A DNA stretch of 64,000 bases. Source: a virus. Lineage: Duplodnaviria; Caudoviricetes. Location: positions 417 through 64,416 of IMG/VR virus record IMGVR_UViG_3300042876_000250; one strand, written 5' to 3'. Positions 1 through 59,396 of this stretch are shown one piece after another (within the stretch, counting starts at the first letter, position 1; each line of letters begins with the position of its first letter). The notes below the pieces were generated by a model. That model was not told the origin of the DNA and made no database searches. It saw only the letters and a program-made list of their open reading frames with translations. The position numbers were made by a program, and so were the translations under genes.

Positions 1-48
1 CCGTAGAAGTGGTCGGCGTCGTGGTCTTGGAACCAGAGAGAGTCGCCC
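1..48. repeat. Terminal direct repeat, identical to 63953-64000 (circular assembly overlap)
   Basis: ccgtagaagt...gagtcgccc is identical at both ends of the window. Confidence 0.97.
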
Positions 49-134
49 GTGGCTTGGTGCGTGACCTCGTAGGCCCAGCCGTTGCCGTGGCTTGTGATGT
101 GGAATCGCCCGGTGGGCGTGGTGAATTGCAGCAT
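1..134 (-). CDS. 5' part of a 65-aa acidic hypothetical protein that spans the circular junction (continues to 63889)
   Basis: ATG at 134 with GGAGAA SD; MLQFTTPTGRFHITSHGNGWAYEV... continues in frame into 63952-63889. Confidence 0.8.
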   Translation of the reverse strand, partial: MLQFTTPTGRFHITSHGNGWAYEVTHQATGDSLWFQDHDADHFY

Positions 135-204
135 GGTGCGTTCTCCAAAGGTTGTCGGGCAGGATTGCCCCCTCAGCCCTGCACGCAAGGCTGAGAGAGT
201 TTCC

Positions 205-387
205 TCAAGAGTTGATGGCGCGGGCGTAGAGCGCTCGCTTGAACTCGAACTTGGCGTGCTCGAAGTTGAAGCTGCGGTTGAACTGGCGCTCGCGCTCCCT
301 GCGTTCGGCTTGTTCTTTGGCGGCTTCGGCATCGCCTTGGGCAATCCACTCGGCGAGTTCTTGGCATGTGCTGGGGAGTTTGTTCAT
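205..387 (-). CDS. Hypothetical early protein, 60 aa
   Basis: GGAGAACACACC-ATG start, helical charged sequence. Confidence 0.8.
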   Translation of the reverse strand: MNKLPSTCQELAEWIAQGDAEAAKEQAERRERERQFNRSFNFEHAKFEFKRALYARAINS

Positions 388-510
388 GGTGTGTTCTCCA
401 AAAGAAAGAGTCTTGCTCAGACTCGGGTTGACAGGAAAGGAAATAGCGGCCGGGCCTCACGCCCTGCGCCGCCAGGAAAAAGTGAGTGTGCACTCACTCC
501 ACGGGAAAAA

Positions 511-535
511 ACTCGCTGACAGGTTGTCAGCAACT
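511..535. promoter_or_regulatory. 25-bp palindromic motif, copy 1 (ACTCGCTGACA-GGT-TGTCAGCAACT)
   Basis: One of six copies, all in the early region. Confidence 0.7.
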
Positions 536-927
536 TACAGGGCAGCAAGCTGGGCCTTGAAGCTGCGCTTCTCACCGGCAGACAGCTTCGCGTAGTCGGC
601 CAGCAGCTTGGCCACGAGGTCGGCCTTGGCTTTGGTCTTGGCCTTGGCGGGCTTGGTGTCCACGCTCGGGAAGCACACGGCCAGCACGCGGTACATGGCG
701 CGCTCGGCGTCAGAGTTACGCGGCAGCATGTCACCGCGCTGGCCCTGGGTGATGGCGGCCTTGTACTTCTTGCTGGCCCACTCCATCGCCAGTGGCTTGG
801 CCGTGGCTTTGTCGCCGATGCCCAGCTTCAACAGGCGCTCGGTGAAACTCGCTGACGTGTTGTCAGCATCGTTGAAGACGGCGAAGGCAGCGGCTTTGGT
901 GGCGGCAGTGAGTTTGAATTGAGACAT
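535..927 (-). CDS. Ala/Lys-rich hypothetical protein, probably the first early gene
   Basis: GGAGAACCACC-ATG start; upstream TACAAT -10 at 988-993 on the - strand. Confidence 0.85.
   Translation of the reverse strand: MSQFKLTAATKAAAFAVFNDADNTSASFTERLLKLGIGDKATAKPLAMEWASKKYKAAITQGQRGDMLPRNSDAERAMYRVLAVCFPSVDTKPAKAKTKAKADLVAKLLADYAKLSAGEKRSFKAQLAAL
847..871. promoter_or_regulatory. 25-bp palindromic motif, copy 2 (inside CDS)
   Basis: ACTCGCTGACG-TGT-TGTCAGCATCG. Confidence 0.6.
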
Positions 928-1292
928 GGTGGTTCTCCAGTAGTGAGGTTGAGTATCGGCAGGGCGAACTCCCTAACCGATGACTCTATTGTACCTAAAC
1001 ACGTTTCAGAGCAGCCCTGGCAGCGGCTGGCGGCGAATGCTTTTGGCTACACATCGACCCCACCGTGGGGTGGGAACCCCTTTTTGGGCGTGCGGCGGCG
1101 TCATTACATGAACACTGTTCCACACCCGCTCCCACAACTTTGTAAAACGTTTGCCCAAACAACTCGCCCAGAGCTAAACATCCTACCAAAGGGCGTCTAT
1201 ATAAAAATTAGGGAAGTTATCGCCGGACGATAACTTTGCCCTGGCTCCAAATTTTTCAAAAAATTTTGGAAAACCTGTGTCAAACGCTGGCC

Positions 1293-1327
1293 AAAGAAAA
1301 GGCCCGGGTGTTTTCACACGCCGGGCC
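1293..1327 (-). terminator. Rho-independent terminator
   Basis: GGCCCGG(C)GTGT-GAAA-ACAC-CCGGGCC stem followed by TTTTCTTT on the - strand. Confidence 0.75.
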
Positions 1328-1394
1328 CAACACCTTCAACCAACAAGGAAAGCAAAATGAAACAAGGAGGAGCAGTTGCTTGCACAACGGCTCG
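1293..1394 (-). ncRNA. Candidate ~100-nt small antisense RNA
   Basis: TTGATA-18-TACACT promoter (1429-1400), 5' hairpin 1370-1393, anti-SD/anti-ATG core, intrinsic terminator 1293-1327. Confidence 0.5.
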
Positions 1395-1409
1395 ATGAAA
1401 GTGTACATT
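1380..1409 (+). promoter_or_regulatory. Sigma70-like promoter for the packaging/late operon
   Basis: TTGCAC-18-TACATT about 45 nt upstream of the 1453 start; overlaps the divergent - strand promoter. Confidence 0.55.
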
Positions 1410-1452
1410 ACGCCCCAACGAGGTATCAAGGGGGCAACCCCAGCCTGCGCAT

Positions 1453-2064
1453 ATGTTTGAACACTTGGTGCAATTCGAGCCGGAAGTCACACCGCCCGGA
1501 AAACTGACCACGCTGGAAAACGCGGGGCCGGAACAACTGTTGGCTGCCCAGACTGCCACGGCATCCTGGCTGGAAGAGATTGGTGCACCGCCAGACGAGG
1601 CGGTCGAGTTGGAAGTGGAGAAGTCCCGCGCCCGCACGGCGTTCTCCGCGCTCACCACAAACACCAACACGCTCGACCAGAAGGCCGCGCTCGTCACCCT
1701 CAAGACCCCCGAAGCTGTCCGGCACCTTACAGGCATGCTCACGGCCTACGACTGGGAGTTTGTCGAGCAGGCCAAGGAGCTGCGCGGGTACACGGTCGCC
1801 AAGATCGTGGAGGAAACCACCAACCCGAACCCCAACATCCGCCTCAAAGCGCTTCAGCTTCTGGGCAAGGTCACAGAAGTGGGCCTCTTCACCGAGAAGA
1901 TCGAGGTCAAGCAAGCTCCCGCCAGCGACGCGGAGCTGGACGCCCGCATCAAAGAGAAGCTGGGCAAGTTCATGGGTGTGGTTGATGTAATCGACATCAG
2001 TCAGCGGGAAGAAACCATCGAAAACGCTGAAGAAAAGCCCGCCCAAGAGGGCAGCGCCGAGTGA
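1453..2064 (+). CDS. Putative terminase small subunit
   Basis: Directly upstream of terL and coupled to it (GTGA overlap); size and helical content fit. Confidence 0.6.
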   Translation: MFEHLVQFEPEVTPPGKLTTLENAGPEQLLAAQTATASWLEEIGAPPDEAVELEVEKSRARTAFSALTTNTNTLDQKAALVTLKTPEAVRHLTGMLTAYDWEFVEQAKELRGYTVAKIVEETTNPNPNIRLKALQLLGKVTEVGLFTEKIEVKQAPASDAELDARIKEKLGKFMGVVDVIDISQREETIENAEEKPAQEGSAE

Positions 2065-3593
2065 AAACCCTAACTTCGTTGACGAAGTTGGAGCTTGAGG
2101 CGCTCCAGAAGGCCCTGCCGCTGATGTCAGCGCAGGAAAAGGCCGAGCTGCTGGCTGATCTTGAGGAGCGGGAAAAGCGCACGCGTCTGGCAGCAGCCCA
2201 GGACAACATGCTCGGGTTCGCCAGCGCGGTGTACCCAGGCTTCAAGATCGGGCCGCACCACAAAAAGCTGGCCAAAATATTCACGGACGTGATCGAGGGG
2301 CGCAAAAAGCGCGTCATCATCAACATCGCCCCGCGTATGGGGAAGTCCGAGTTCTCCAGCTACCTGTTCCCGGCGTATTTCTTGGGCAAATACCCCGAGA
2401 AGAAGATCATCATGGGCACGCACACGGCGGGCCTGTCGGAGGACTTCGGCCGCAGGATCAGAAACCTGCTGGACACGGAGGAGTACCGCGAGATTTTCCC
2501 CGCCACGGTGGTGGCAGACGACCAGAAAGCTGCGGGCAAGTGGTCTACGAGCGTCGGCGGCCAGTATTACGCAGCCGGTGTGGGCGGCGCGCTGGCCGGA
2601 CGGGGTGCTGACCTGTTCGTGATTGACGATCCGCACTCCGAGCAGGACGTAAAAACCAACAGCCGACTGGCATTCGACACCGCGTGGTCGTGGTTCCAGA
2701 CGGGCCCGCTTCAGCGCTTGATGCCGGGCGGCGCGATCATAATCATCATGACGCGCTGGTCGCTGCTCGACCTCACCGGCCGTCTCATCGACTACCAGAC
2801 AAAGAACCCGGACTCAATCCCGTGGGAGATTGTTGAACTCCCGGCGATCCTCCATGAGGACACGCCCAACGAGAAGTCCCTCTGGCCGGAGCAGTGGCCG
2901 CTGGCCTCGCTCAAGGCAACCAAGGCCTCGCTCGACCCGAAGTACTGGAACGCCCAGTACATGCAGCAGCCCACTTCCGACAGCTCGGCGGTCATCAGCA
3001 GGAAGAGCTGGCGTATTTGGGAAGGCGAGAACCCACCGCCGTGCGACTACGTGATTCAGTCCTGGGATACGGCCTTTGAGACCAAGAACTCCTCCGACTA
3101 CAGCGCCTGCACCACCTGGGGCGTGTTCTACAACGAGGAGGAGGGCAACAGCCCGCAGGTCATCCTGCTCGACGCGTTCAAGGACAGGATGGCGTTCCCA
3201 GAACTCAAGCAAATCGCGCTCAAGCACTACAAAGAGTGGGAGCCAGACGCGTTCATCGTGGAGAAGAAGGCGGCCGGTGCACCCTTGATCCAAGAGCTGC
3301 GTCAGATGGGCATCCCGGTTCAGGAGTTTTCACCGAGCCGGGGAAATGACAAAATGGTGCGGGTTAACGCCGTGGCCGATTTGTTTTCCTCCGGAAAAGT
3401 ATGGGCCCCGGATACGCGCTGGGCCCGGGAAGTCATCGAAGAAATCGCCGCGTTCCCCGTCGGAGAGCACGACGACTATGTGGACACGACAACTCAGGCG
3501 CTGCTGCGCTATCGCCAAGGGGGGTTCATCGCGCTGGACAGCGACGAGCCCGAGGACAGGTTTTTCCAGCGTCGCAGGGCGGCGTACTACTGA
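2061..3593 (+). CDS. terL: Terminase large subunit
   Basis: Walker A NIAPRMGKSE, Walker B LFVIDDPH, nuclease motifs QSWDTA and HDDYVD. Confidence 0.95.
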   Translation: MKTLTSLTKLELEALQKALPLMSAQEKAELLADLEEREKRTRLAAAQDNMLGFASAVYPGFKIGPHHKKLAKIFTDVIEGRKKRVIINIAPRMGKSEFSSYLFPAYFLGKYPEKKIIMGTHTAGLSEDFGRRIRNLLDTEEYREIFPATVVADDQKAAGKWSTSVGGQYYAAGVGGALAGRGADLFVIDDPHSEQDVKTNSRLAFDTAWSWFQTGPLQRLMPGGAIIIIMTRWSLLDLTGRLIDYQTKNPDSIPWEIVELPAILHEDTPNEKSLWPEQWPLASLKATKASLDPKYWNAQYMQQPTSDSSAVISRKSWRIWEGENPPPCDYVIQSWDTAFETKNSSDYSACTTWGVFYNEEEGNSPQVILLDAFKDRMAFPELKQIALKHYKEWEPDAFIVEKKAAGAPLIQELRQMGIPVQEFSPSRGNDKMVRVNAVADLFSSGKVWAPDTRWAREVIEEIAAFPVGEHDDYVDTTTQALLRYRQGGFIALDSDEPEDRFFQRRRAAYY

Positions 3594-3612
3594 GTTTTGA
3601 AAAGGATCGCGC

Positions 3613-6129
3613 ATGGCCACGAATATCGACAAAGCCCTCTTTCAAGCCCCGCAAGGCATTGATGCCGCAGGCGCGGACGAGGAGGCCCTGGAGATTGAGA
3701 TCGTTGACCCGGAGGAGGTGAACATCCACGCCGACGGCCTGGACATCTCGATCACCAAAGAAGAGCCCACGCTCGATGATTTCGACTCCAACCTCGCCGA
3801 GTACCTAGACGAAGGCGTGATGTCTTCGCAAGTCTCGGAGTTGGCCAGCGCCATCGACAACGACAAGAACTCCCGCAAGGACTGGGAGAAGGCTTATGTT
3901 ACAGGTCTGAAACTTTTGGGTTTACAGATTGAAGAGCGCACGGAGCCGTGGGACGGCGCGTCGGGTGTCTTTCATCCCATGATTACCGAGGCGGTGGTCA
4001 AGTTCCAGTCGGAGACCATCACCGAGACGTTCCCGGCCCAGGGCCCGGTGAAAACCAAGATCGTCGGCCGCCAGACTCCGGCCAAGCAAGAAGCCGCTGT
4101 TCGGGTGCAGGAGGACATGAACTTCCAGCTCACCGAGAAGATGCAGGAGTTCCGCCCCGAGCATGAGCGCATGCTGTGGTCGCTGCCTGCCACCGGCAGC
4201 GCCTTCAAGAAGGTGTACTACGACCCGAACCTGGGTCGTCAGGTCTCCATCTTCATCCCGGCCGAGGACATCATCCTGCCCTACGGCACCTCGGACATCC
4301 AGACTGCGCACCGCGTCTCGCACGTCATGCGTAAGACCGAGGACGAGATCAAGAAGCTCCAGATGCAGGGCTTCTACCGCGATGTGGACATCGGCTCGCC
4401 CGAGAAGAACATCGACGACATCAACCGCGCCAAGGACAAAGAGACCGGGTTCACCGACCTCAACGACGACAGGTACACCCTGATCGAGTCGCACGCCGAC
4501 CTCGTGCTGGAGGACGACCCGTACTGCGTGCGGGACGAAGAAGGCGAGCCTGCTGGCATCGCGCTGCCGTACGTGGTCACGTACATCAAGGGCACGAACA
4601 CGGTGCTGGCCATCCGCCGTAACTGGCGGGAGGATGACGAGCTGCACCTCAAGCGCCAGCACTTCGTCCACTACCAGTACATCCCGGGCTTCGGTGCCTA
4701 CGGCTTCGGCCTGTTCCACCTGATCGGTGGCTTTGCCAACTCGGCAACCAGCCTGATGCGCCAGCTCATCGACGCGGGCACGCTGTCGAACCTGCCCGGT
4801 GGCCTCAAGAGCCGGGGCCTGCGTATCAAGGGCGACGACACGCCGATTGCTCCGGGCGAGTTCCGCGACGTGGACATCGGCTCGGGCAGCCTGCGCGACA
4901 ACATCCTGCCGCTGCCGTACAAAGAGCCCTCGGCCACCCTGTTCAACCTGCTCCAGACTGTGGTGGAGGAGGGTCGCCGGTTCGCCGCCACGGCGGACAT
5001 GAAGGTCTCGGACATGTCGGCCCAGGCCCCGGTGGGAACGACCCTGGCCCTGCTGGAGCGCCAGCTCAAAGTCCTCACCGCCGTCCAGGCCCGGGTGCAC
5101 TACTCCCTCAAGCAGGAGCTTCAGCTCCTCAAGGCAATCATCCGCGACTACACGGACGACGAGTACAGCTACGAGCCCGACGCCAACAAGGACGAGGGCG
5201 ACCTGCGCCGGGTCAAGAAGTCGGACTACGACATCGTTGAGGTCATCCCGGTCAGCGATCCGAACGCCGCCACCCTCTCCCAGCGTCTGGTGCAGTACCA
5301 AGCGGTCATCCAGCTTTCGCAGACGGCCCCGGACATCTACAACCTGCCGCAGCTCCACCGGGGCATGCTGGAGGTTCTAGGCATCCGCAACGCTGACAAG
5401 CTGGTGCCGCTGCCCGACGACCAGAAGCCCAAAGACCCGGTGTCTGAGAACGTGGCGGCCCTCAAGGGCGAACCGCTCAAGGCGTTCCAGTACCAAGATC
5501 ACGAGTCCCACATCAAGGTGCACACCGCCGCGATGCAAGACCCGATCATCATGCAGCTTGTGGGACAGAACCCCCGCGCCCCGCAGATTCAGGCTGCCAT
5601 GATGGCGCACATTGCCGAGCACGTCGGCTTTGCCTACCGCCAGAAGATTGAGCAGCAACTGGGCATGGCCCTGCCGCCCGACGACGAGAAGCTGCCCCCG
5701 CAGATCGAGCTGTCGCTCTCGCAGATGATGGCTCAGGCTGCGCAGCAGGTGCTCCAGCAGTCGCAGACCATGGCGGCCCAGCAGCAGGCACAGCAGCAAG
5801 CCCAAGACCCGGTGCTCCAGATGCAGCAGCAAGAGTTGCAGCTCAAGCAGCAGGAGCTTCAGATCAAGGCGCAGAAGCTGCAACTGGACTCCCAGGCCAT
5901 GCAGCAGGACATGGCGCTCAAGGACAAGCAGATGCAGGTCAACGCGGCGACCAAGGCCGACGAGATCGCACTGAAAGAAAAAGCCCTCCAAGTGGACGCG
6001 GCCTACAAGGCTGACCAACTGGCCGCGCAGCAAGAACGCGAAGGTACCCGCATGGGTATCGACATTGCGAAGGCGAAAGCCGCTGAACGTGCGAGAGCAC
6101 AAAACCCCGGAGGTAAGTCCAACAAATGA
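3613..6129 (+). CDS. Portal protein (P22-like) with long Gln-rich C-terminal coiled coil
   Basis: Follows terL, 838 aa, KKVYYD and YGFGLFHLIGG motifs, Q-rich C-terminal helix. Confidence 0.9.
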   Translation: MATNIDKALFQAPQGIDAAGADEEALEIEIVDPEEVNIHADGLDISITKEEPTLDDFDSNLAEYLDEGVMSSQVSELASAIDNDKNSRKDWEKAYVTGLKLLGLQIEERTEPWDGASGVFHPMITEAVVKFQSETITETFPAQGPVKTKIVGRQTPAKQEAAVRVQEDMNFQLTEKMQEFRPEHERMLWSLPATGSAFKKVYYDPNLGRQVSIFIPAEDIILPYGTSDIQTAHRVSHVMRKTEDEIKKLQMQGFYRDVDIGSPEKNIDDINRAKDKETGFTDLNDDRYTLIESHADLVLEDDPYCVRDEEGEPAGIALPYVVTYIKGTNTVLAIRRNWREDDELHLKRQHFVHYQYIPGFGAYGFGLFHLIGGFANSATSLMRQLIDAGTLSNLPGGLKSRGLRIKGDDTPIAPGEFRDVDIGSGSLRDNILPLPYKEPSATLFNLLQTVVEEGRRFAATADMKVSDMSAQAPVGTTLALLERQLKVLTAVQARVHYSLKQELQLLKAIIRDYTDDEYSYEPDANKDEGDLRRVKKSDYDIVEVIPVSDPNAATLSQRLVQYQAVIQLSQTAPDIYNLPQLHRGMLEVLGIRNADKLVPLPDDQKPKDPVSENVAALKGEPLKAFQYQDHESHIKVHTAAMQDPIIMQLVGQNPRAPQIQAAMMAHIAEHVGFAYRQKIEQQLGMALPPDDEKLPPQIELSLSQMMAQAAQQVLQQSQTMAAQQQAQQQAQDPVLQMQQQELQLKQQELQIKAQKLQLDSQAMQQDMALKDKQMQVNAATKADEIALKEKALQVDAAYKADQLAAQQEREGTRMGIDIAKAKAAERARAQNPGGKSNK

Positions 6130-30667: not shown

Positions 30668-33600
30668 ATGGAACTCAGTCAAGTCCTTCAAGCACTCCGT
30701 AACGCAGACGCCGCAGGCGACAAGGAGGCAGCAAGAAGGCTGGCTGAGATTGCCAGGGAAATGGCGGGCGTTGAGCCCCCGGCACCGGAGAAGAAAAGCT
30801 CCGGTGTTCTGGCATCTGCGGCCAAGGGCATCGAGGCCCTCATTTCTTCTGGCCGTACAGCAGCAGGCGCGATCACCGGGGACGCCAACGAAGCTGCCCG
30901 CGCCGCACTTGAGCGCAGCGCCAGCATGGAGCGCCGCTATGCGGACGATGTAAGTCTTGAAAAGGTTAAGCAGGCTTACGAGCAGCGAGGTCTGCTGCCT
31001 GCGGCGGGCGAGGCCATCAGCCAGATTCCAAAAGCTCTGGCTGAACAGGCACCCAACATTGCGGCCACCCTTGGCAGCGCCCGTCTTGGCGCGATGGCAG
31101 GCGCTCCGTTCGGCCCTGTTGGTGCGATTGTTGGGGGTACCGCAGGCGCGGTTGCGCCCGGTTTGGCTCAGATGTTCGGCTCCAACGTTGAGCGCCAAGC
31201 TGCTGAACAGCAACGTGCCGGGCAGCCCATCAACGTCGATGTGGGCGCAGCAGGAGCTGCCGCAGTCCCGCAAGCCGCGCTTGACGCCGCCGCCACTTTC
31301 ATCCCCCTTGGCGGACGCATCGTCAGCAAAGTTACCGGCATCTCCCTGGAGTCACTTGGCACGCGCACTGCTGCTGAGACCGCCAAGCTGGCAGAAGAAC
31401 GGCTGTTGGCGGTGCTGGCCAAGGGCGGGGCAAAAGGTATTGCCGCCGAGGTGCCGACGGAAGTTGCCCAGCAAATGCTGGAGCGCGCGCAGGCAGGGCT
31501 GTCGCTGACATCGCCCGAAGCCCTTCAAGAGTACGGCGAGACCGCATATCAAGTGTCGCTGCTTGCACCGTTGGGCGCAGCCGGTCGTATCTCCGAACGT
31601 AGTGGCGCTCGCCAAGAAGTTGCCAAGCAGCAAGACGCAGAGCGCAAAGCCGCGCAGCAAGCACGCATTCAACAAGAGCGCGTTGCCAAAGAGCAGCAAG
31701 CCCAGGCAGCCGCAGCCGAAGAAGCGCGTCGGCAAACGCCCGGGTACGCGCTGGAAGTGCAAGCCAAATATCAAGCGCTTGAGGGTCGGGCCGCAGAGCT
31801 GCGTGGGCAACTCCGCGAAGTGAAGAAGGACTCTCCCACGGCTACGGCAGACGCGGAGTTCAACAAAGACATCAAGGCCCAGCTCAAACAGCTTGGCAAA
31901 GAGTTGAGTGAAACCGCGAAAGAATACAACCGCGTTCGGCCTGTCCTGACATCCATGACTGCGCAGCAAGCGCAGGCCCAGGCAGCGCAGCAAGCCGCTG
32001 CGGAGGAGTATCAGAAGCGGCAGCAACAAGCCTACGCTGACCAAGAGCAGCAGTACCAACTGCAAGCCATGCGGCAGCAGATGGAGCAAACGCCGGGCTA
32101 CCAGCAGCAGATTCCTGGCCTTGCCCCCATGGAGACCGAGGGCGCGCCGCAAACAACGACGCCGATGCCTGACACGGCGGCGCAGGCGCGGGAGTTTGCA
32201 GCCAAGCAGCAAGAGATGGCGCAGCTCTTGGAGAATGCCCAGGAGCAAGAGTCCGAAGCCGCAGGTCGCGGTGACATCGACTCGCTCAAAGCCCTGCGCC
32301 AGCGCAGGCAGATGCTCCAGAACGAGTACGAGTACGTCTCCAAACAACTCGCTGCACTGGGTGGTGTCCCGGCAAACGACGCCGAGAGTCTTCAAAACAA
32401 GATTGCTTCGCTGCAAGAAAAGCTCAAGGCGATGGCAGGGCCCGGCTACGACCCGGCCAAGGCTGACAAGATCATCGACCAGATCGACTCCTTGCAGAAG
32501 CAACTCAAAGAGCTGGGGCTTCCTGAGAGAGCAGGCGTGCAGCAGCGCCTTGACTACGGCCCGGCCAACCAGACGCAGAAGATTGCCACCTGGGAAGAAG
32601 CCGGACGCCAAGAGCTTGGCCGCCGCGACGAAGACCTCAAGCGCCAGACTGGCCAGCAGGACGGTTTTGACTTTGGTGAGTTTGACGAGCAGACCCGCGA
32701 ACTGGATAAGCAGCGCAGGGAAGGCTTTACTGCCGCAGAAATTGCGGCGATGGAACGCGCTCGGTTGGACACCTCGCGTACTGCACAAGGCACCCTGTTT
32801 GGTGAAGAGGCGAAAGAAGGGATCGAGACCGGGATCGGAAGCCAGAAGTCCCGTCAACAACTGGTCAACGATCTGCGTCTTGCCCGCGCTGCGCGCAACG
32901 CCCAGCCGGATCGCCGTGCCGGGGGCACCCAAGCCGTCAGCCAAGCACTGGAGGCACTGCGCGACTATGACGCCCGCGTTGCGGCTGAACAAGAGCGTGG
33001 CACCTCCAAGCTGGGAGAGATTGACGAAGACACCCAGAAGGCGCTGGCCGGAGCGGCCGTGCCCGAACGCGAGAAGGCGGTGCAGTCTGCGCGTGAACTG
33101 CGCGACGGTGCATATGCAGACATCGTTGACATGGTGTCCCGCTCCGACCGGGGCCGTTCGTTTACGAATCAGATTGCCGCTGCGCAGCAAAAGCTCGTGG
33201 ACTTCTCGATCAAGGAAGCCGAGTTCCGTCGCGGTGAGGCTCTGACCGCTGAAGAGAAGCAACAGCTAACCGCCAAGATTTACGAGACTGTCCGTGAGCT
33301 ACGTGGCCGCATGGGCGACACCCGCAACATCGTCAACGTTGGCACCAAAGATGAGCCGCGTTACGTTGACGCTGCATACACCACGGAGGGCGGTGCTGGC
33401 ACTGGCCCAACTGGCATGGGGCTGGCCAACATTGAGAGTCGCGCTCCTGGCCAGCGTACGTTTGCCAACACGTTTGCCGCAATCAAGTCGCTGCAAGAAG
33501 GTCTGGATCGCGCCATCAGTGGTTCGGCCAAACGTCGCACCGGATCGGTAGAGACCACCATCACCCCCGAGAAGACATCCGCGCAAATGCTGGCGCGGGA

Positions 33601-43847: not shown

Positions 43848-44309
43848 TTACTGAGTGGGTTTGCGAACAGAAATCTGGTACTCGGTCGTCGAGTTCATGC
43901 CGGGAGGCAGGACGCCGGGGTTGTCCTTGAGGAACGTCGCCATGTTCGTCTGGGCAATACGTTTCTCCAAAAGGTCAAGGGCGTCATGTTCCTTGATGAA
44001 CTCTTTGAAAGAGTCCCAGTCCTGGGTTTGGTAGCGCGTCTTGGTGGAGAGCACCACGGTGCCGTTGGCGGTACGCACAGAGTTGATGCCCAGCACGAGC
44101 ATCTGATCCTTCAGCGCGTTCTTCACAGCTTCCTGCTGGCGCTTGACCTCTGCAACAGCGGTGTCGTATTCAGTCGTGAGTTCCTGAATCTTCGCCGCCA
44201 TCTTGCGGTAGACCTTGGCCAGCTTGTCCATGGGGATCGCGGCCAGCGCAGCAGCTTCTGCTTCGTCGTTCTGAGCCGGGGGCGGCTCCTCGTCATCAAT
44301 GTCGTGCAT
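43848..44309 (-). CDS. Conserved replication-module protein (coiled coil, Gam-like)
   Basis: AAGGAG SD; DWDSFKEFI..H..DLLEKRI, LPPG. Confidence 0.7.
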   Translation of the reverse strand: MHDIDDEEPPPAQNDEAEAAALAAIPMDKLAKVYRKMAAKIQELTTEYDTAVAEVKRQQEAVKNALKDQMLVLGINSVRTANGTVVLSTKTRYQTQDWDSFKEFIKEHDALDLLEKRIAQTNMATFLKDNPGVLPPGMNSTTEYQISVRKPTQ

Positions 44310-44378
44310 TTTTGCTCCTTGTTGTTTGTCTAAGGTTGGACATGTTACTCGGTTTTTGTGGTCGTGCAATAGCCTCCT

Positions 44379-47254: not shown

Positions 47255-47448
47255 TCTGATTCGTCGGTGGTGAGAAACTTGGCAACGCGTTCAAGCGTTT
47301 GGAAAGAGCAGGCGTACGGGCCGTTGATTCTGGACAGCACGTACGTTGGTGGCTCGTCAATAGCGTAAGAGGGGAGCGTCTCCAGCTCCCAGCCCTTGTA
47401 CTGCGCCAGCGAGTACATCGCGTCAAAGCTCAGCGGAGTGGATGGCAT
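47251..47448 (-). CDS. Hypothetical protein
   Basis: Stop coupled to the nuclease start; start position uncertain. Confidence 0.5.
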   Translation of the reverse strand: MPSTPLSFDAMYSLAQYKGWELETLPSYAIDEPPTYVLSRINGPYACSFQTLERVAKFLTTDESE

Positions 47449-47719
47449 CGTTGAGTCGCTTGGCAAAGGCATCCACGAACTCCTCGTTGTGCTCCAGCCG
47501 GTGCCCCATGTCGCGCAGGATGGCGTGCGTCATCTCGTGCCAGAAGGTGTGCGACTGCTGCTGGGGAGACCTGCGGCGCTGGGTGAGTTGTGAGTGGGTG
47601 CCGACGACGATGCGCTGCTGCTCATAGTCAATGAAGCCGAAGCGGTGCTTGCCGGGAGTCTTGACGACATCGACGGTGTACCTGCTGCGGCCCACGCTGA
47701 TGTGTTTGGGAATCATCAT
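47423..47719 (-). CDS. Small zincin-like metallopeptidase
   Basis: TFWHEMTHAIL...NEEFVD. Confidence 0.75.
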   Translation of the reverse strand: MMIPKHISVGRSRYTVDVVKTPGKHRFGFIDYEQQRIVVGTHSQLTQRRRSPQQQSHTFWHEMTHAILRDMGHRLEHNEEFVDAFAKRLNDAIHSAEL

Positions 47720-50114: not shown

Positions 50115-50404
50115 TGGGACTCCTTCAAAAGCAGTGGCAAGCCACCGATGTTGTTCTCGTTGATGACTACGGCGTGGCCTCCGCATTCCTTGATCCTTGC
50201 AATGTGCGCCTCTTGCAGCGCAGTCGTTGTGCCCTTGCCAGCCTTGGCCTCAATGGCCAGGAACTTGCCGCGCACGCAGCACAGAAAGTCCGGCACGCCA
50301 GAGTTACCGTAGCCGGTACCAATCGGCATGGCGTAGTACACGCCATGCTCGTCCAAGATTTTTCTGATCTTGGCTTTCACTTTAGCTTCTGGAGTTGATG
50401 CCAT
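50111..50404 (-). CDS. VRR-NUC nuclease / putative Holliday junction resolvase
   Basis: PEAKVK, GVPDFL, FLAIEAK, TALQ. Confidence 0.9.
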   Translation of the reverse strand: MASTPEAKVKAKIRKILDEHGVYYAMPIGTGYGNSGVPDFLCCVRGKFLAIEAKAGKGTTTALQEAHIARIKECGGHAVVINENNIGGLPLLLKESQ

Positions 50405-50778
50405 ATGTCTCGAAAATATCTTGCGGGGACTTCGCGTTCCTCGCTTTGGAAAAACATCTCTGCGTCATAGCGCTGCGCAAACTCGTCGAGTTCATCACCC
50501 GAGAAGAATTTGAACTGGCCCTCGTCTTCGACCAGCACACCGCGCCTGCGCAGCACCTCGTACATGTGGGCTTTGGCTGCGTACCGCATGGCGGTATTTC
50601 TCGTATCGCCCAATTCGCGCTGGAGTGAAGCAAGCCTTTCGCGCAGTTCGTACTGCTCATAGTTCATGCGAACCATCTTGGCATGTGCTTCGATTACCTT
50701 CGCAGCGTCTTGCTCTTGCTGGGTCAGCGGCCTTTGCTGCGCCAGCTCAAGCGGTTTCTTTTTCCATTGTGCTTTCAT
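50377..50778 (-). CDS. Hypothetical coiled-coil protein
   Basis: AAGGAG SD directly downstream of a structured element. Confidence 0.7.
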   Translation of the reverse strand: MKAQWKKKPLELAQQRPLTQQEQDAAKVIEAHAKMVRMNYEQYELRERLASLQRELGDTRNTAMRYAAKAHMYEVLRRRGVLVEDEGQFKFFSGDELDEFAQRYDAEMFFQSEEREVPARYFRDIWHQLQKLK

Positions 50779-50792
50779 CTTGCGCTCCTTGT

Positions 50793-50936
50793 GTTGGGGT
50801 AGGGGGTCATGTAGATTCAGCGCCCCCTGTCGCTGTGAGGAGAACGGTGCGGGTGGAACATCTCACTGCTGCCGACCCCGGCCCGCACCGGGCAAAACGT
50901 GTTCGCATCTACAAGGCTTGCACGCGTTGCCCCAAC
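50793..50936 (-). ncRNA. Candidate structured RNA with kissing-loop pseudoknot
   Basis: Closing stem plus three hairpins; loops UGUAGAU and AUCUACA are complementary. Confidence 0.55.
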
Positions 50937-50962: not shown

Positions 50963-51163
50963 TCAGTACGGCGCTTCAGGCAGCGCCGCGAATTCTTTTT
51001 TCTTCAGCAGTCTTTCGATCTGCTCCAGCTTCTCCGGGTCGGCCTTCTCGAAGGGCCACCACTTGCCGGTCTGAATTTTTTCTGCGAGTTGTTGCGATGA
51101 GCACTTCCGCAGTCTTAAACCTGTGCTCGTTTCCGCAGACTCTGGTTCGGATGTTGTTCTCAT
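50963..51163 (-). CDS. Hypothetical protein overlapping the Zn-ribbon ORF
   Basis: ATGA-coupled to 51160-51534; TGKWWPFEK..EAPY. Confidence 0.45.
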   Translation of the reverse strand: MRTTSEPESAETSTGLRLRKCSSQQLAEKIQTGKWWPFEKADPEKLEQIERLLKKKEFAALPEAPY

Positions 51164-51218
51164 TTTGCTTTCTTGTCTCGACCACCATCGTCCACGCTCC
51201 GCACTCGGGGCACTTCAT
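50976..51218 (-). CDS. NrdR-N-like Zn-ribbon protein
   Basis: MKCPECG..T.V.ETR....RTRVC...HRFKT.E. Confidence 0.7.
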   Translation of the reverse strand: MKCPECGAWTMVVETRKQNENNIRTRVCGNEHRFKTAEVLIATTRRKNSDRQVVALREGRPGEAGADRKTAEEKRIRGAA

Positions 51219-51534
51219 CTTTCTTCTCCAGCCAAACAATGATCTCGCCCGTCCCGCGCTTGACTGCCTGCCGCACCGCGACCTTGCCCCGCAGGTCTTT
51301 GTTGAGGATGTAGCGTTGCAGCGCGCGACGGACGCTTTGGAAATTTCTCTCGGGGAACTCAATAGCCGACTTCATCTGCACCAGCTTGTCGAACTCCGCG
51401 TCGTACTTGGTCATGCCCTTGGAGACGCGGTTGATCGCGGGGATCGGTACCTCTTTCAGCACGGGCTTGCCGGTGAACGGGTTGGTTGCAGTTGCAAAGG
51501 AAGTGGTCGGTTTCTTGGTGTTCATTTTGCTCAT
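51160..51534 (-). CDS. Hypothetical protein
   Basis: ATGA-coupled; KEVPIP..TKY..F..VW. Confidence 0.7.
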   Translation of the reverse strand: MSKMNTKKPTTSFATATNPFTGKPVLKEVPIPAINRVSKGMTKYDAEFDKLVQMKSAIEFPERNFQSVRRALQRYILNKDLRGKVAVRQAVKRGTGEIIVWLEKKDEVPRVRSVDDGGRDKKAK

Positions 51535-59366: not shown

Positions 59367-59396
59367 AGTGTATCTGATCTGTCTAGTGTTTGACAA
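59367..59396 (-). promoter_or_regulatory. Sigma70-like promoter of the AAA-vWA operon
   Basis: TTGTCA-18-TACACT. Confidence 0.6.

What the first reader, a model, noticed from the sequence alone, without database searches (positions are those of the whole stretch)
1293..1429. Candidate trans-acting antisense sRNA that matches several phage ribosome-binding sites
Seen: a - strand promoter (TTGATA-18-TACACT) overlaps the late promoter and shares its AGTGTACATT -10 region. It is followed by a 5' hairpin (1370-1393), a pyrimidine-rich core 5'-CUCCUCCUUGUUUCAUUUUGCUUUCCUUGUUGGUUG-3' and a clear intrinsic terminator, about 100 nt with no ORF. The core's complement CAACCAACAAGGAAAGCAAAATGAAAC resembles three start regions: 44309 (CAAACAACAAGGAGCAAAAATG), the giant protein at 30668 (CAAGGTAGCAAAATGGAAC) and 50778 (CCAACACAAGGAGCGCAAGATGAAA). 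Inference: an sRNA at the early/late switch that blocks translation of selected phage, and possibly host, mRNAs. Caveat: SD regions are compositionally alike, so some similarity is expected by chance.
Basis: partly seen in the sequence, partly recalled or inferred. Interest (0 to 1): 0.75.

Follow-up and report, generated by a model that had tools for sequence, protein, structure and literature searches.

The report
Conserved phage small RNA with anti-ribosome-site core
A roughly 100-base non-coding RNA gene sits between the two divergent control regions of this uncultured freshwater phage; in related phages its exposed pyrimidine-rich stretch changes together with the ribosome-binding region of one phage gene, as expected of an antisense translation regulator.

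Summary
Window 1293-1429 carries a - strand sigma-70-like promoter (TTGATA-18-TACACT), a 5' hairpin, an unpaired CU-rich core and a strong intrinsic terminator.

The unit is conserved. It is present in 62 of the 77 sequences compared (the window plus 76 relatives of an uncultured ~64 kb phage family).
- The stems covary and are rich in G.U pairs, which form only in the - strand RNA.
- The 15 relatives that lack the core and terminator have also lost the final T of the - strand -10.
- A + strand micro-ORF is rejected.

In relatives, the complement of each phage's RNA best matches the translation start region of its own SprT-like 99-aa gene, next to the DNA polymerase gene. Own pairs beat permuted pairs (at most 1 of 50,000 permutations), and there are lineage-specific co-changes.

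In this window that pairing is lost. The core looks tandemly duplicated.

The closest known family is the betaproteobacterial CU-rich "toxic/double-hairpin" sRNAs (RF02278). The architecture is similar but the score is below the family's threshold. No expression data could be obtained.

Verdict: a real, undescribed phage sRNA family, probably a translational repressor. Its targets in this window remain unresolved.

The parts
1424..1429 (-). -35 box of the sRNA promoter (TTGATA)
   Evidence: In 35 of 37 unique promoter contexts of relatives that carry the module, the -35 hexamer starts with TTG; in 33 of these it lies 17 nt from the -10, in the window and L002 18 nt.
1400..1405 (-). -10 box of the sRNA promoter (TACACT). 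It overlaps the + strand -10 by 2 bp.
   Evidence: The hexamer is TAnACT in 37 of 37 unique module-bearing contexts, and TACACC or TACACA in 6 of 6 unique module-lacking contexts.
1293..1394 (-). Predicted sRNA of about 100 nt. The start site is inferred about 7 nt after the -10; the 3' end is the U-tract.
   Evidence: Fold z = -3.37, 0 of 200 shuffles as stable. nhmmer finds one copy per genome in 6 of 6 genomes. No Rfam family reaches its gathering score.
1370..1393 (-). 5' hairpin with a GCAA (GNRA) tetraloop
   Evidence: In the alignment, 7 of 9 pairs of this helix have a change on both sides. The 5' part is more stable as - strand RNA in 39 of 44 unique sequences.
1363..1374 (-). CU-rich core copy 1 (UGCUCCUCCUUG). 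It sits at the position of the family core UGCUUCUCCU; CUCCUU (1364-1369) is unpaired.
   Evidence: Read. The UC of the family core is invariant across the 44 aligned sequences. MAFFT placed the window's second copy on these columns, so assigning copy 1 to the family core is my own reading.
1340..1354 (-). CU-rich core copy 2 (UGCUUUCCUUGUUGG). This copy is shared with the closest relative, L002.
   Evidence: The tandem duplication is my reading of the sequence.
1300..1328 (-). Intrinsic terminator stem-loop (12 pairs, GAAA loop)
   Evidence: A terminator is kept in all 44 unique relatives with different stem sequences; 4 of 5 scored pairs have changes on both sides.
1293..1299 (-). Terminator U-tract (UUUCUUU; the preceding U pairs with the first G of the stem)
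1380..1409 (+). Rightward promoter of the TerS/structural operon (TTGCAC, 18 nt, TACATT). It would be mutually exclusive with the sRNA promoter.
   Evidence: Read. The -10 is conserved in relatives with and without the sRNA module. AGTGTACATTAC occurs only once in the window. Activity and timing are inferred.
1278..1283 (-). TTGACA -35 of the leftward (replication/early-side) promoter, about 10 nt after the sRNA terminator
   Evidence: GTTTGACA is conserved in most relatives, followed about 17 nt later by an AT-rich TATAAA-like box. In the window itself the -10 is poor.
50773..50796 (-). Best candidate target start region in this window (133-aa gene 50377-50778). A 20-nt duplex with core copy 2: 17 Watson-Crick pairs, 2 G.U pairs, 1 mismatch, spanning SD to AUG+3.
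   Evidence: Rank 2 of 93 start regions. Tied for second- to fourth-best non-self site genome-wide, score 34, equal to the 99.9th percentile. No covariation in the 2 genomes that have an orthologue. Weak.
47423..47719 (-). SprT-like 99-aa HExxH gene, the conserved target in relatives. Here its start region pairs only at background level.
   Evidence: Pfam PF10263 E = 1.7e-3, below the cut-off. phrog_1233 E = 8e-17. Rank 38 of 93. Own score 21.

Best explanation
Window 1293-1394 (- strand) encodes a trans-acting base-pairing small RNA of the phage.

Proposed mechanism:
- Host sigma-70 RNA polymerase starts at TTGATA-18-TACACT. The -10 overlaps the -10 of the rightward structural-operon promoter, so one polymerase can occupy only one of the two.
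- The transcript forms a GNRA-capped 5' hairpin and exposes a CU-rich, anti-Shine-Dalgarno-like core. It ends at a strong intrinsic terminator just before the leftward promoter.
- The core pairs with the Shine-Dalgarno/start-codon region of phage mRNAs and blocks ribosome loading.
- In relatives, the best-matching and co-evolving partner is the SprT-like metalloprotease-like gene downstream of the DNA polymerase gene.
- In this window the core is diverged and apparently duplicated. Pairing to that gene is lost, and the present targets are unresolved; the best candidate is the start region at 50778.

Shown: the anatomy; conservation; strand-specific structure; loss of the - strand -10 and, in most, of its -35 in the relatives that lack the module; and genome-specific complementarity to one orthologous start region.

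Inferred: transcription itself, the start site, repression of translation, timing, and promoter competition.
For: Anatomy: one promoter-like site against 0.2 expected. Fold z = -3.37, 0 of 200 shuffles as stable.

Conservation: 392 TerS relatives were found in IMG/VR and 80 were kept.
- Of the 77 sequences compared (window plus 76 relatives), 62 carry the same unit; 44 of these are unique.
- The order is always the same: -10, 5' hairpin, unpaired (U)UCUCC(U) core, variable hairpin, terminator, then GTTTGACA.
- By eye, the unit recurs in the 40 of 80 metagenome loci that I inspected, except L206.

Strand:
- The 5' part folds better as - strand RNA in 39 of 44 unique sequences (mean difference -5.3 kcal/mol), with up to 8 G.U pairs per stem.
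- 83.3% of cells pair against 73.0% in shuffles.
- The covariation score is 0.309 against 0.171 in shuffles (0 of 500 reach it), and at most 0.095 with slid partners.
- 11 of 14 pairs have changes on both sides.

Promoter and module go together: the - strand -10 is TAnACT in 37 of 37 unique module-bearing contexts. It is TACACC or TACACA in 6 of 6 module-lacking ones, and 4 of those 6 also have GTGTAA instead of TTGTAA at the -35.

Target:
- The complement of each phage's own RNA was blasted against its own genome. The best non-self hit is the SprT-like start region in G001 (18/19), G003 (16/17) and G005 (23/25). It ranks 2-3 in G004 and about 6 in G002.
- Own sRNA against own start region sums to 403 over 15 genomes. 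Permuted pairings give 319 +/- 17, and 0 of 20,000 permutations reach it.
- With one genome per lineage (12): 321 against 252 +/- 15, reached by 1 of 50,000 permutations. With Watson-Crick pairs only, 0 of 50,000 reach it.
- Lineage-specific co-changes: GCAGAUG (G005/G019), GCGA (G009), GAAAGCAUG (G026), GCAAUGGAGAUA (G001), GAGGAGAAUC inside codons 3-8 (G020).
- In G001 the SprT-like gene has the only GGAGAAGCA start region followed directly by ATG, whereas 7 other genes share GGAGAACCA.

In this window: the mean duplex energy with 93 start regions is -21.5. Shuffled cores give -19.6 +/- 0.7, and 0 of 100 shuffles do as well. - strand genes pair better than + strand genes (p = 0.001).
Against: - No expression data: no RNA run was listed for this phage. 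The promoter, start site and RNA are predictions.
- In this very window the conserved target pairs at background level (score 21 against an off-diagonal mean of 20.5; rank 38 of 93).
- The window's best start-region hit is matched by 3 of 100 shuffled cores. It sits only at the 99.9th percentile of genome windows.
- The top non-self hit, at 51177, lies inside a coding region.
- 4 of the 12 lineages give weak own pairings: the window, G008 (a 10-nt generic motif only), G013 and G023.
- The own start region is the best partner of its sRNA in only 6 of 12 lineages.
- Start regions are compositionally alike, and many genes in G004 and G005 share AGGAGAAGCAA. Part of the complementarity is therefore generic.
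- Conservation of the hairpin loop GCGCAAGC is confounded with the + strand -35 (GCTTGC).
- The sequences are related, so the shuffle and Wilcoxon figures overstate independence.
Confidence: 0.62

Rival explanations
1. Promoter-occlusion or insulator element. What matters is the act of leftward transcription from a promoter that overlaps the structural-operon promoter, together with a terminator that shields the neighbouring leftward promoter. The RNA would be a by-product with no base-pairing role.
For: The -10 boxes overlap by 2 bp in all relatives. The terminator sits about 10-25 nt before the conserved GTTTGACA box. In this window no target stands clearly above chance.
Against: A by-product RNA would not keep an unpaired (U)UCUCC(U) core across the 44 unique sequences (the UC is invariant). 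It would not keep G.U-rich stems that form only in the RNA. It would not co-vary with the start region of a gene 16-18 kb away.
Confidence: 0.15
2. A host-directed mimic. The RNA is a phage copy or convergent look-alike of the host's CU-rich 'toxic/double-hairpin' sRNAs (RF02278). It acts mainly on ribosome-binding sites of host mRNAs to reprogram or shut off host translation.
For: - Below-threshold RF02278 matches fall on the - strand at the sRNA locus in the window (14.3 bits) and in 9 of 15 relatives (20-27 bits; gathering score 50).
- The layout matches: UGUCUCCU, hairpin, AUUCA, terminator.
- RF02278 passes its cut-off in 38 of 61 genomes of the family of the one MAG that holds a TerS relative, an uncultured Limnohabitans.
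- Members of that family are predicted to cover ribosome-binding sites, and overexpression of ncS27 slows growth (PMC5688073, passages read).
Against: - The scores are far below the cut-off, and most of the bits come from the terminator.
- At E <= 1, weak hits occurred in 11 of 14 control genomes.
- The host assignment rests on a single 1.7-kb binned contig.
- The covariation found is with a phage gene, not a host gene.
- This rival does not exclude the main explanation.
Confidence: 0.15
3. A + strand element. The conserved AGGAGAAGCAA(A)TG would be a real ribosome-binding site and start of a tiny leader peptide (here MKQGGAVACTTAR, ATG at 1357), or a decoy site, upstream of the TerS operon.
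For: On the + strand the motif looks like this phage's typical start region. 27 of 44 unique relatives have an ATG 6-12 nt after the SD-like motif.
Against: - 17 of 44 have no such ATG by that parse. The script read the wrong motif in the window and in L070, so the true count without ATG is about 15. Three of them have ACG, which still pairs with AUG through G.U when read as antisense RNA.
- Peptide length and sequence are not conserved.
- The motif lies upstream of the + strand promoter, so no + transcript is expected to carry it.
- The adjacent hairpin is a terminator only on the - strand (A-run before it, no T-run after it).
- The G.U-rich stems cannot form in + strand RNA.
Confidence: 0.04

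Closest known systems
Betaproteobacteria toxic small RNA / 'double-hairpin RNAs' (Rfam RF02278; ncS03, ncS05, ncS27, ncS62 of Burkholderia cenocepacia)
   Same: - Short (57-92 nt), independently transcribed and terminator-ended sRNAs.
[quoted passage not shown] 55-80% of predicted interactions lie within about 20 nt of gene starts (PMC5688073, PMC4603805; passages read).
- The model consensus UGUCUCCU, hairpin, AUUCA, GC-rich terminator parallels the phage's UGCUUCUCCU, hairpin, (C)UUCA, terminator.
- The family is common in the putative host's bacterial family: 38 of 61 genomes pass the cut-off.
   Different: - The score is 14.3 bits in the window and 20-27 bits in 9 of 15 relatives, against a gathering score of 50. 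It is not a member by Rfam's criterion.
- The phage RNA has an extra 5' hairpin.
- The loop of its middle hairpin carries no second CU motif in most relatives.
- It is phage-borne, and it co-varies with a phage gene.
c4 antisense RNA of phages P1 and P7
   Same: A phage-encoded RNA that binds complementary sequences around the ribosome-binding site of a phage mRNA (ant) and blocks its translation. The pairing specificity differs between related phages (PMC12197685, passage read).
   Different: c4 is cut out of the leader of the operon it controls and serves lysogenic immunity (recalled, beyond the passage read). Here the RNA has its own promoter and terminator, lies 16-18 kb from the co-varying target, and no lysogeny function is evident.
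T4 RegA translational repressor
   Same: A phage-encoded factor that binds the translation start regions of several phage early mRNAs and shuts off their translation. The logic would be the same if the sRNA acts on the shared early start-region motif.
   Different: RegA is a protein. Multi-target action of this sRNA has not been shown.
Anti-SD-motif sRNAs of alpha-proteobacteria (NfeR1, MmgR/RF00519)
   Same: Trans-acting sRNAs. MmgR (RF00519) gave below-threshold hits of 20-25 bits at the locus in 4 of 15 relatives; gathering score 41. That these sRNAs carry CCUCC-type motifs aimed at ribosome-binding sites is my recollection; the alignment shows only a CUCCCU stretch in the MmgR consensus. 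For NfeR1 I saw only the search listing and abstracts.
   Different: Different sequence and structure, chromosomal, below threshold.

Membership tests
Rfam RF02278 (Betaproteobacteria toxic small RNA) | Covariance-model score at or above the gathering score (50 bits) | tested here: not met
   14.3 bits in the window. 20.3-27.2 bits in 9 of 15 relatives and no hit in 6. No family reaches its gathering score anywhere in the 64 kb.
Rfam RF02278 (Betaproteobacteria toxic small RNA) | Layout: unpaired 5' UGUCUCCU, hairpin 1 with a CU-rich loop, AUUCA linker, GC-rich terminator | tested here: inconclusive
   The core, the linker and the terminator align. The CU-rich hairpin loop is missing in most relatives, and an extra 5' hairpin is present.
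Independently transcribed bacterial or phage sRNA gene | Own promoter and own intrinsic terminator, with no conserved ORF | tested here: met
   These are sequence-level predictions only.
Independently transcribed bacterial or phage sRNA gene | A detectable transcript of the predicted size and strand | not testable with these tools
   No RNA holder was listed. No cultured relative was found.
Trans-encoded base-pairing sRNA that occludes ribosome-binding sites | Unpaired seed complementary to the SD/start-codon region of a distant mRNA, kept by co-variation | tested here: met
   Met for the family. Own pairs sum to 321 against 252 +/- 15 for permuted pairs, reached by at most 1 of 50,000 permutations, with lineage-specific co-changes. 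Not met for this window's own copy (score 21, background 20.5).
Trans-encoded base-pairing sRNA that occludes ribosome-binding sites | Repression of the target's translation that depends on the pairing | not testable with these tools
   Needs reporter fusions with compensatory mutations.
P1/P7 c4-type immunity RNA | Processed from the leader of the operon it represses; target sites in the same transcript | tested here: not met
   The RNA has its own promoter and terminator. The co-varying target lies 16-18 kb away. No Rfam C4 hit.

The most novel reading that the evidence does not exclude
A large family of uncultured freshwater phages carries a derivative, captured or convergent, of its host's CU-rich 'toxic' sRNA. 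It would work as an RNA counterpart of T4 RegA. Transcribed from a promoter that physically excludes the structural-operon promoter, it would titrate the shared start-region motif of phage early genes, above all a SprT-like protease, and possibly host mRNAs. Translational shut-off of one gene set would then be wired directly to the firing of the other promoter.
Probability: 0.2. Interest if true: 0.8.

Novelty: new member of a known kind. Interest (0 to 1): 0.62.

Why it matters
Few phage-encoded sRNAs that regulate the phage's own genes in trans are known. Those I found in the review passages I read (PMC12197685) come from cultured temperate phages.

Here a new sRNA family is defined purely from sequence in hundreds of uncultured lake-phage contigs. 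It comes with a concrete target that can be tested by covariation. Its promoter architecture suggests a built-in either/or choice with the structural operon.

The family also links phage regulation to the poorly understood CU-rich sRNAs of Betaproteobacteria. One 2015 paper I read in passages (PMC4603805) still called the native function of those sRNAs unknown.

If confirmed, it gives a model for RNA-based control of translation timing in environmental phages, and a search recipe: a terminator-ended anti-start-region RNA in a divergent control region.

Tried and rejected
- RNA evidence: the look-up of sequencing runs on window 1-6000 (kind rna) listed no RNA holder.
- Known families: no Rfam family reached its gathering score in 64 kb.
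- Cultured relatives: blastn of 900-3600 against phage records hit only the TerL gene of 4 distant phages at 67-69% identity. Their annotated neighbourhoods are organised differently. tblastn with TerS found no phage record.
- The three isolated Limnohabitans phages in PMC12195039 (abstract and section 3.3 read) differ from this phage in size and G+C.
- Earlier notes of this scan held nothing on this locus.
- + strand micro-ORF: rejected (see the rival explanations).
- A phage-polymerase promoter repeated through the genome: rejected. AGTGTACATTAC and the downstream conserved box each occur only once.
- A near-exact target for core copy 2: none within 3 mismatches.
- Genome-wide duplex-energy scan: the first attempt timed out. 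I repeated it with a coarser step. The energies of long imperfect duplexes proved poorly discriminating, so I moved to blastn-short and a local-alignment score.
- The cores I had cut for G004 and G005 were badly chosen and were redefined.
- RNAalifold on the MAFFT alignment recovered only the terminator. I therefore supplied the 5' hairpin by hand, and some relatives (the L030 type) use a shifted register.
- RF02278 in the Limnohabitans MAG itself: only a 16-bit hit.
- Closer relatives carrying the window-type core: none beyond L002, in either IMG/VR or the metagenome scan.
- No fold, complex or atlas job was run.
- Supplementary files of the papers were not opened.
Full report
Setting. The window is bases 417-64416 of a 64,416-base IMG/VR virus record rated 99% complete.
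- Plus-strand genes run from a 203-aa TerS-like gene (1453) through terminase, portal and virion genes to a giant protein ending at 39322.
- Minus-strand genes fill 64000->39433 and 927->1.
- The finding therefore lies in the single divergent control region, 928-1452.

The observation.
- The promoter scan of 900-1600 returns one sigma-70-like site, against 0.2 expected. It is on the - strand: TTGATA (1429-1424), 18 nt, TACACT (1405-1400).
- Its -10 overlaps by 2 bp a + strand TACATT (1404-1409). That hexamer has TTGCAC 18 nt upstream.
- The RNA 1394->1293 folds into a 5' hairpin with a GCAA loop (1393-1370), an unpaired stretch (1369-1329) and a 12-pair terminator followed by UUUUCUUU.
- The fold energy is -38.0 kcal/mol against -26.9 +/- 3.3 for shuffles, and 0 of 200 shuffles are as stable.
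- The RNA has no AUG.
- No Rfam family reaches its gathering score.

Conservation. The TerS-like protein has 392 relatives in IMG/VR, of which the best 80 were kept.
- I dropped L036, L053 and L075 because they had too little upstream DNA. L074 failed my -10 pattern.
- Of the remaining 77 sequences (window plus 76 relatives), 62 carry the same unit; 44 of these are unique.
- Read on the - strand, the order is: TAnACT, about 7 nt, a 5' hairpin, an unpaired (U)UCUCC(U) core, a variable second hairpin, a (C)UUCA-like linker, a GC-rich terminator with 5-9 U, then GTTTGACA and an AT-rich -10-like box.
- Fifteen relatives (L016-L029 and L054) lack the core and the terminator.
- The unit recurs in the 40 of 80 metagenome loci that I inspected by eye. 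L206 lacks it, and L246 has a CCUCCU variant.
- Each of six complete or near-complete genomes has exactly one copy.

Which strand is functional.
- The terminator is a terminator only on the - strand.
- The 5' part folds better as - strand RNA in 39 of 44 unique sequences (mean difference -5.3 kcal/mol), because its stems are rich in G.U pairs.
- For the hairpin-plus-terminator structure on the alignment, 83.3% of cells pair, against 73.0% in shuffles.
- The covariation score is 0.309 against 0.171 in shuffles (0 of 500 reach it), and at most 0.095 when partners are slid.
- 11 of 14 pairs show changes on both sides.
- The sequences are related, so these figures are not probabilities.
- All 37 unique promoter contexts with the module keep TAnACT, and 35 of them have a -35 hexamer starting with TTG, 17 nt from the -10 in 33 and 18 nt in the window and L002.
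- All 6 unique contexts without the module read TACACC or TACACA, and 4 of them read GTGTAA at the -35. The - strand promoter is thus kept only where there is something to transcribe. These 6 contexts amount to about two independent losses.
- A + strand micro-ORF is rejected. 27 of 44 have an ATG after the SD-like motif, but by that parse 17 do not (about 15 after correcting two mis-parsed rows). Three read ACG, which as antisense CGU still pairs with AUG. The peptides are not conserved.

What it pairs with. I blasted the complement of each phage's own RNA against its own genome.
- The best non-self hit is the translation start region of one orthologous gene in G001 (18/19), G003 (16/17) and G005 (23/25 with one gap). 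It ranks 2-3 in G004 and about 6 in G002.
- That gene encodes a 99-aa HExxH protein immediately downstream of the family-A DNA polymerase gene.
- Its Pfam SprT-like match has E = 1.7e-3, below the cut-off. Its phrog_1233 match has E = 8e-17.
- I then gathered 15 genomes that hold both loci.
- A local-alignment score of own sRNA complement against own start region sums to 403. Permuted pairings give 319 +/- 17, and 0 of 20,000 permutations reach it.
- With one genome per lineage (12), the sum is 321 against 252 +/- 15, reached by 1 of 50,000 permutations. With Watson-Crick pairs only it is 287 against 217 +/- 13, reached by 0 of 50,000.
- The own start region is the best partner of its sRNA in 6 of 12 lineages.
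- Under neutral drift from a shared ancestor, own pairs should not beat cross pairs. The excess therefore points to co-evolution.
- Concrete co-changes are GCAGAUG in G005/G019, GCGA in G009, GAAAGCAUG in G026 and GCAAUGGAGAUA in G001.
- In G020 the pairing shifts to GAGGAGAAUC in codons 3-8.
- In G001 the SprT-like gene has the only GGAGAAGCA start region followed directly by ATG, while 7 other genes share GGAGAACCA. The match there is therefore specific.
- In G004 and G005, AGGAGAA(A)GCAA(A)UG is shared by 7 and 9 - strand sites, nearly all at gene starts. There the RNA could reach many genes.
- Weak own pairings are the window, G008 (a generic 10-mer), G013 and G023.

This window's copy.
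- The window and its nearest relative L002 are outliers.
- By my reading the core is a tandem duplication: UGCUCCUCCUUGUU (in the family-core position) followed by UGCUUUCCUUGUU.
- Pairing with the window's SprT-like start region (47719) is at background level: score 21 against 20.5, and rank 38 of 93.
- Across 93 start regions the real core pairs better on average than any of 100 shuffled cores (-21.5 against -19.6 +/- 0.7).
- It also pairs better with - strand than with + strand genes (p = 0.001).
- Its best hit, however, is equalled by 3 of 100 shuffles.
- The 50778 duplex is the most convincing: 20 nt, 17 Watson-Crick pairs, 2 G.U pairs and 1 mismatch, running from the SD to AUG+3.
- The top non-self site at 51177 lies inside a coding region.

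Closest known.
- With relaxed thresholds, the locus gives below-threshold - strand hits to RF02278, the "Betaproteobacteria toxic small RNA". The score is 14.3 bits in the window and 20-27 bits in 9 of 15 relatives; the gathering score is 50.
- The alignment matches UGUCUCCU, hairpin, AUUCA, terminator.
- The only genome-collection hit for TerS is a 1.7-kb contig binned to an uncultured Limnohabitans, which is a weak hint at the host.
- In that MAG's bacterial family, RF02278 passes its cut-off in 38 of 61 genomes, with the layout just described.
- Papers read in passages describe these RNAs as 57-92-nt "double-hairpin" sRNAs.
- They were reported toxic when cloned in E. coli, and overexpression of ncS27 slows growth (PMC4603805, PMC5688073).
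- The phage RNA works like them on paper but fails the membership score. Weak hits to this model are also common: at E <= 1 they occurred in 11 of 14 control genomes.
- Among phage RNAs, c4 of P1/P7 is the nearest in logic (PMC12197685, passage read).

Verdict.
- The feature is a real, conserved, previously undescribed small-RNA gene of an uncultured phage family.
- The antisense-to-start-region reading is well supported for the family by covariation.
- It remains unproven for this window's copy, and nothing shows expression.
- My searches for phage-encoded small RNAs aimed at ribosome-binding sites, for the toxic small RNAs and for phages of Limnohabitans found no description of this element.

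Noticed in passing
window 1278-1293, 44327-44342, 59380-59395: Palindromic box TGTCnAAnnnTnGACA. It overlaps the TTGACA -35 next to the sRNA terminator. It recurs, perfect or with 1 mismatch, upstream of the gene at 44309 and in the 59.4 kb intergenic gap. It may be a repeated promoter/operator of the - strand genes. The loose pattern itself is not enriched (7 hits; 13 of 100 shuffles reach 7). The same box sits upstream of the 44309 orthologues in G001-G004.
   Followed up: partly
window 1214-1236 and 1246-1270: Two more symmetric elements lie between the sRNA terminator and the first leftward gene. One is a perfect 9-bp inverted repeat, AAGTTATCG-TCCGG-CGATAACTT, listed as terminator-like on the - strand. 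The other is an AT-rich palindrome, CCAAATTTTTCAAAAAATTTTGG, conserved as AAATTTTATAAAAATTT in relatives.
   Followed up: no
window - strand gene starts, e.g. 62407, 61893, 60400, 58124, 56912, 56680, 47732, 938: Nine - strand sites share the identical extended motif GGAGAACCA, 8 of them followed 2-4 nt later by ATG; none occurs on the + strand. Relatives have either this motif or GGAGAA(A)GCAaATG. Identity this long among start regions is unusual in itself.
   Followed up: partly
window 50976-51218 (- strand): A zinc-ribbon-like N-terminus (MKCPECGAW...VCGNEH) is in one frame. A protein-like C-terminal half is in another frame that opens at ATG 51162. Both overlap the end of ORF 51160-51534. 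This may be a frameshift, a sequencing indel or overlapping genes.
   Followed up: no
L016-L029, L054, L206: A clade of relatives lacks the sRNA core and terminator altogether. There the rightward -10 sits only about 35 nt from the leftward TTGACA box, and the + strand -35 is also different.
   Followed up: partly
L059:2833-2953 and L068:1918-2039 (- strand): In these two relatives the 5' hairpin of the sRNA carries an insertion of about 35 nt that forms an extra GGCC-UCAC-GGCC hairpin. The RNA is about 120 nt long and the core is unchanged.
   Followed up: no
L278 (genome contigs): The only TerS relative in 185,579 species genomes is a 1.7-kb contig binned to an uncultured Limnohabitans MAG (72% identity). 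This is a weak host hint, consistent with the phage's 60% G+C and the lake sources of its relatives.
   Followed up: partly
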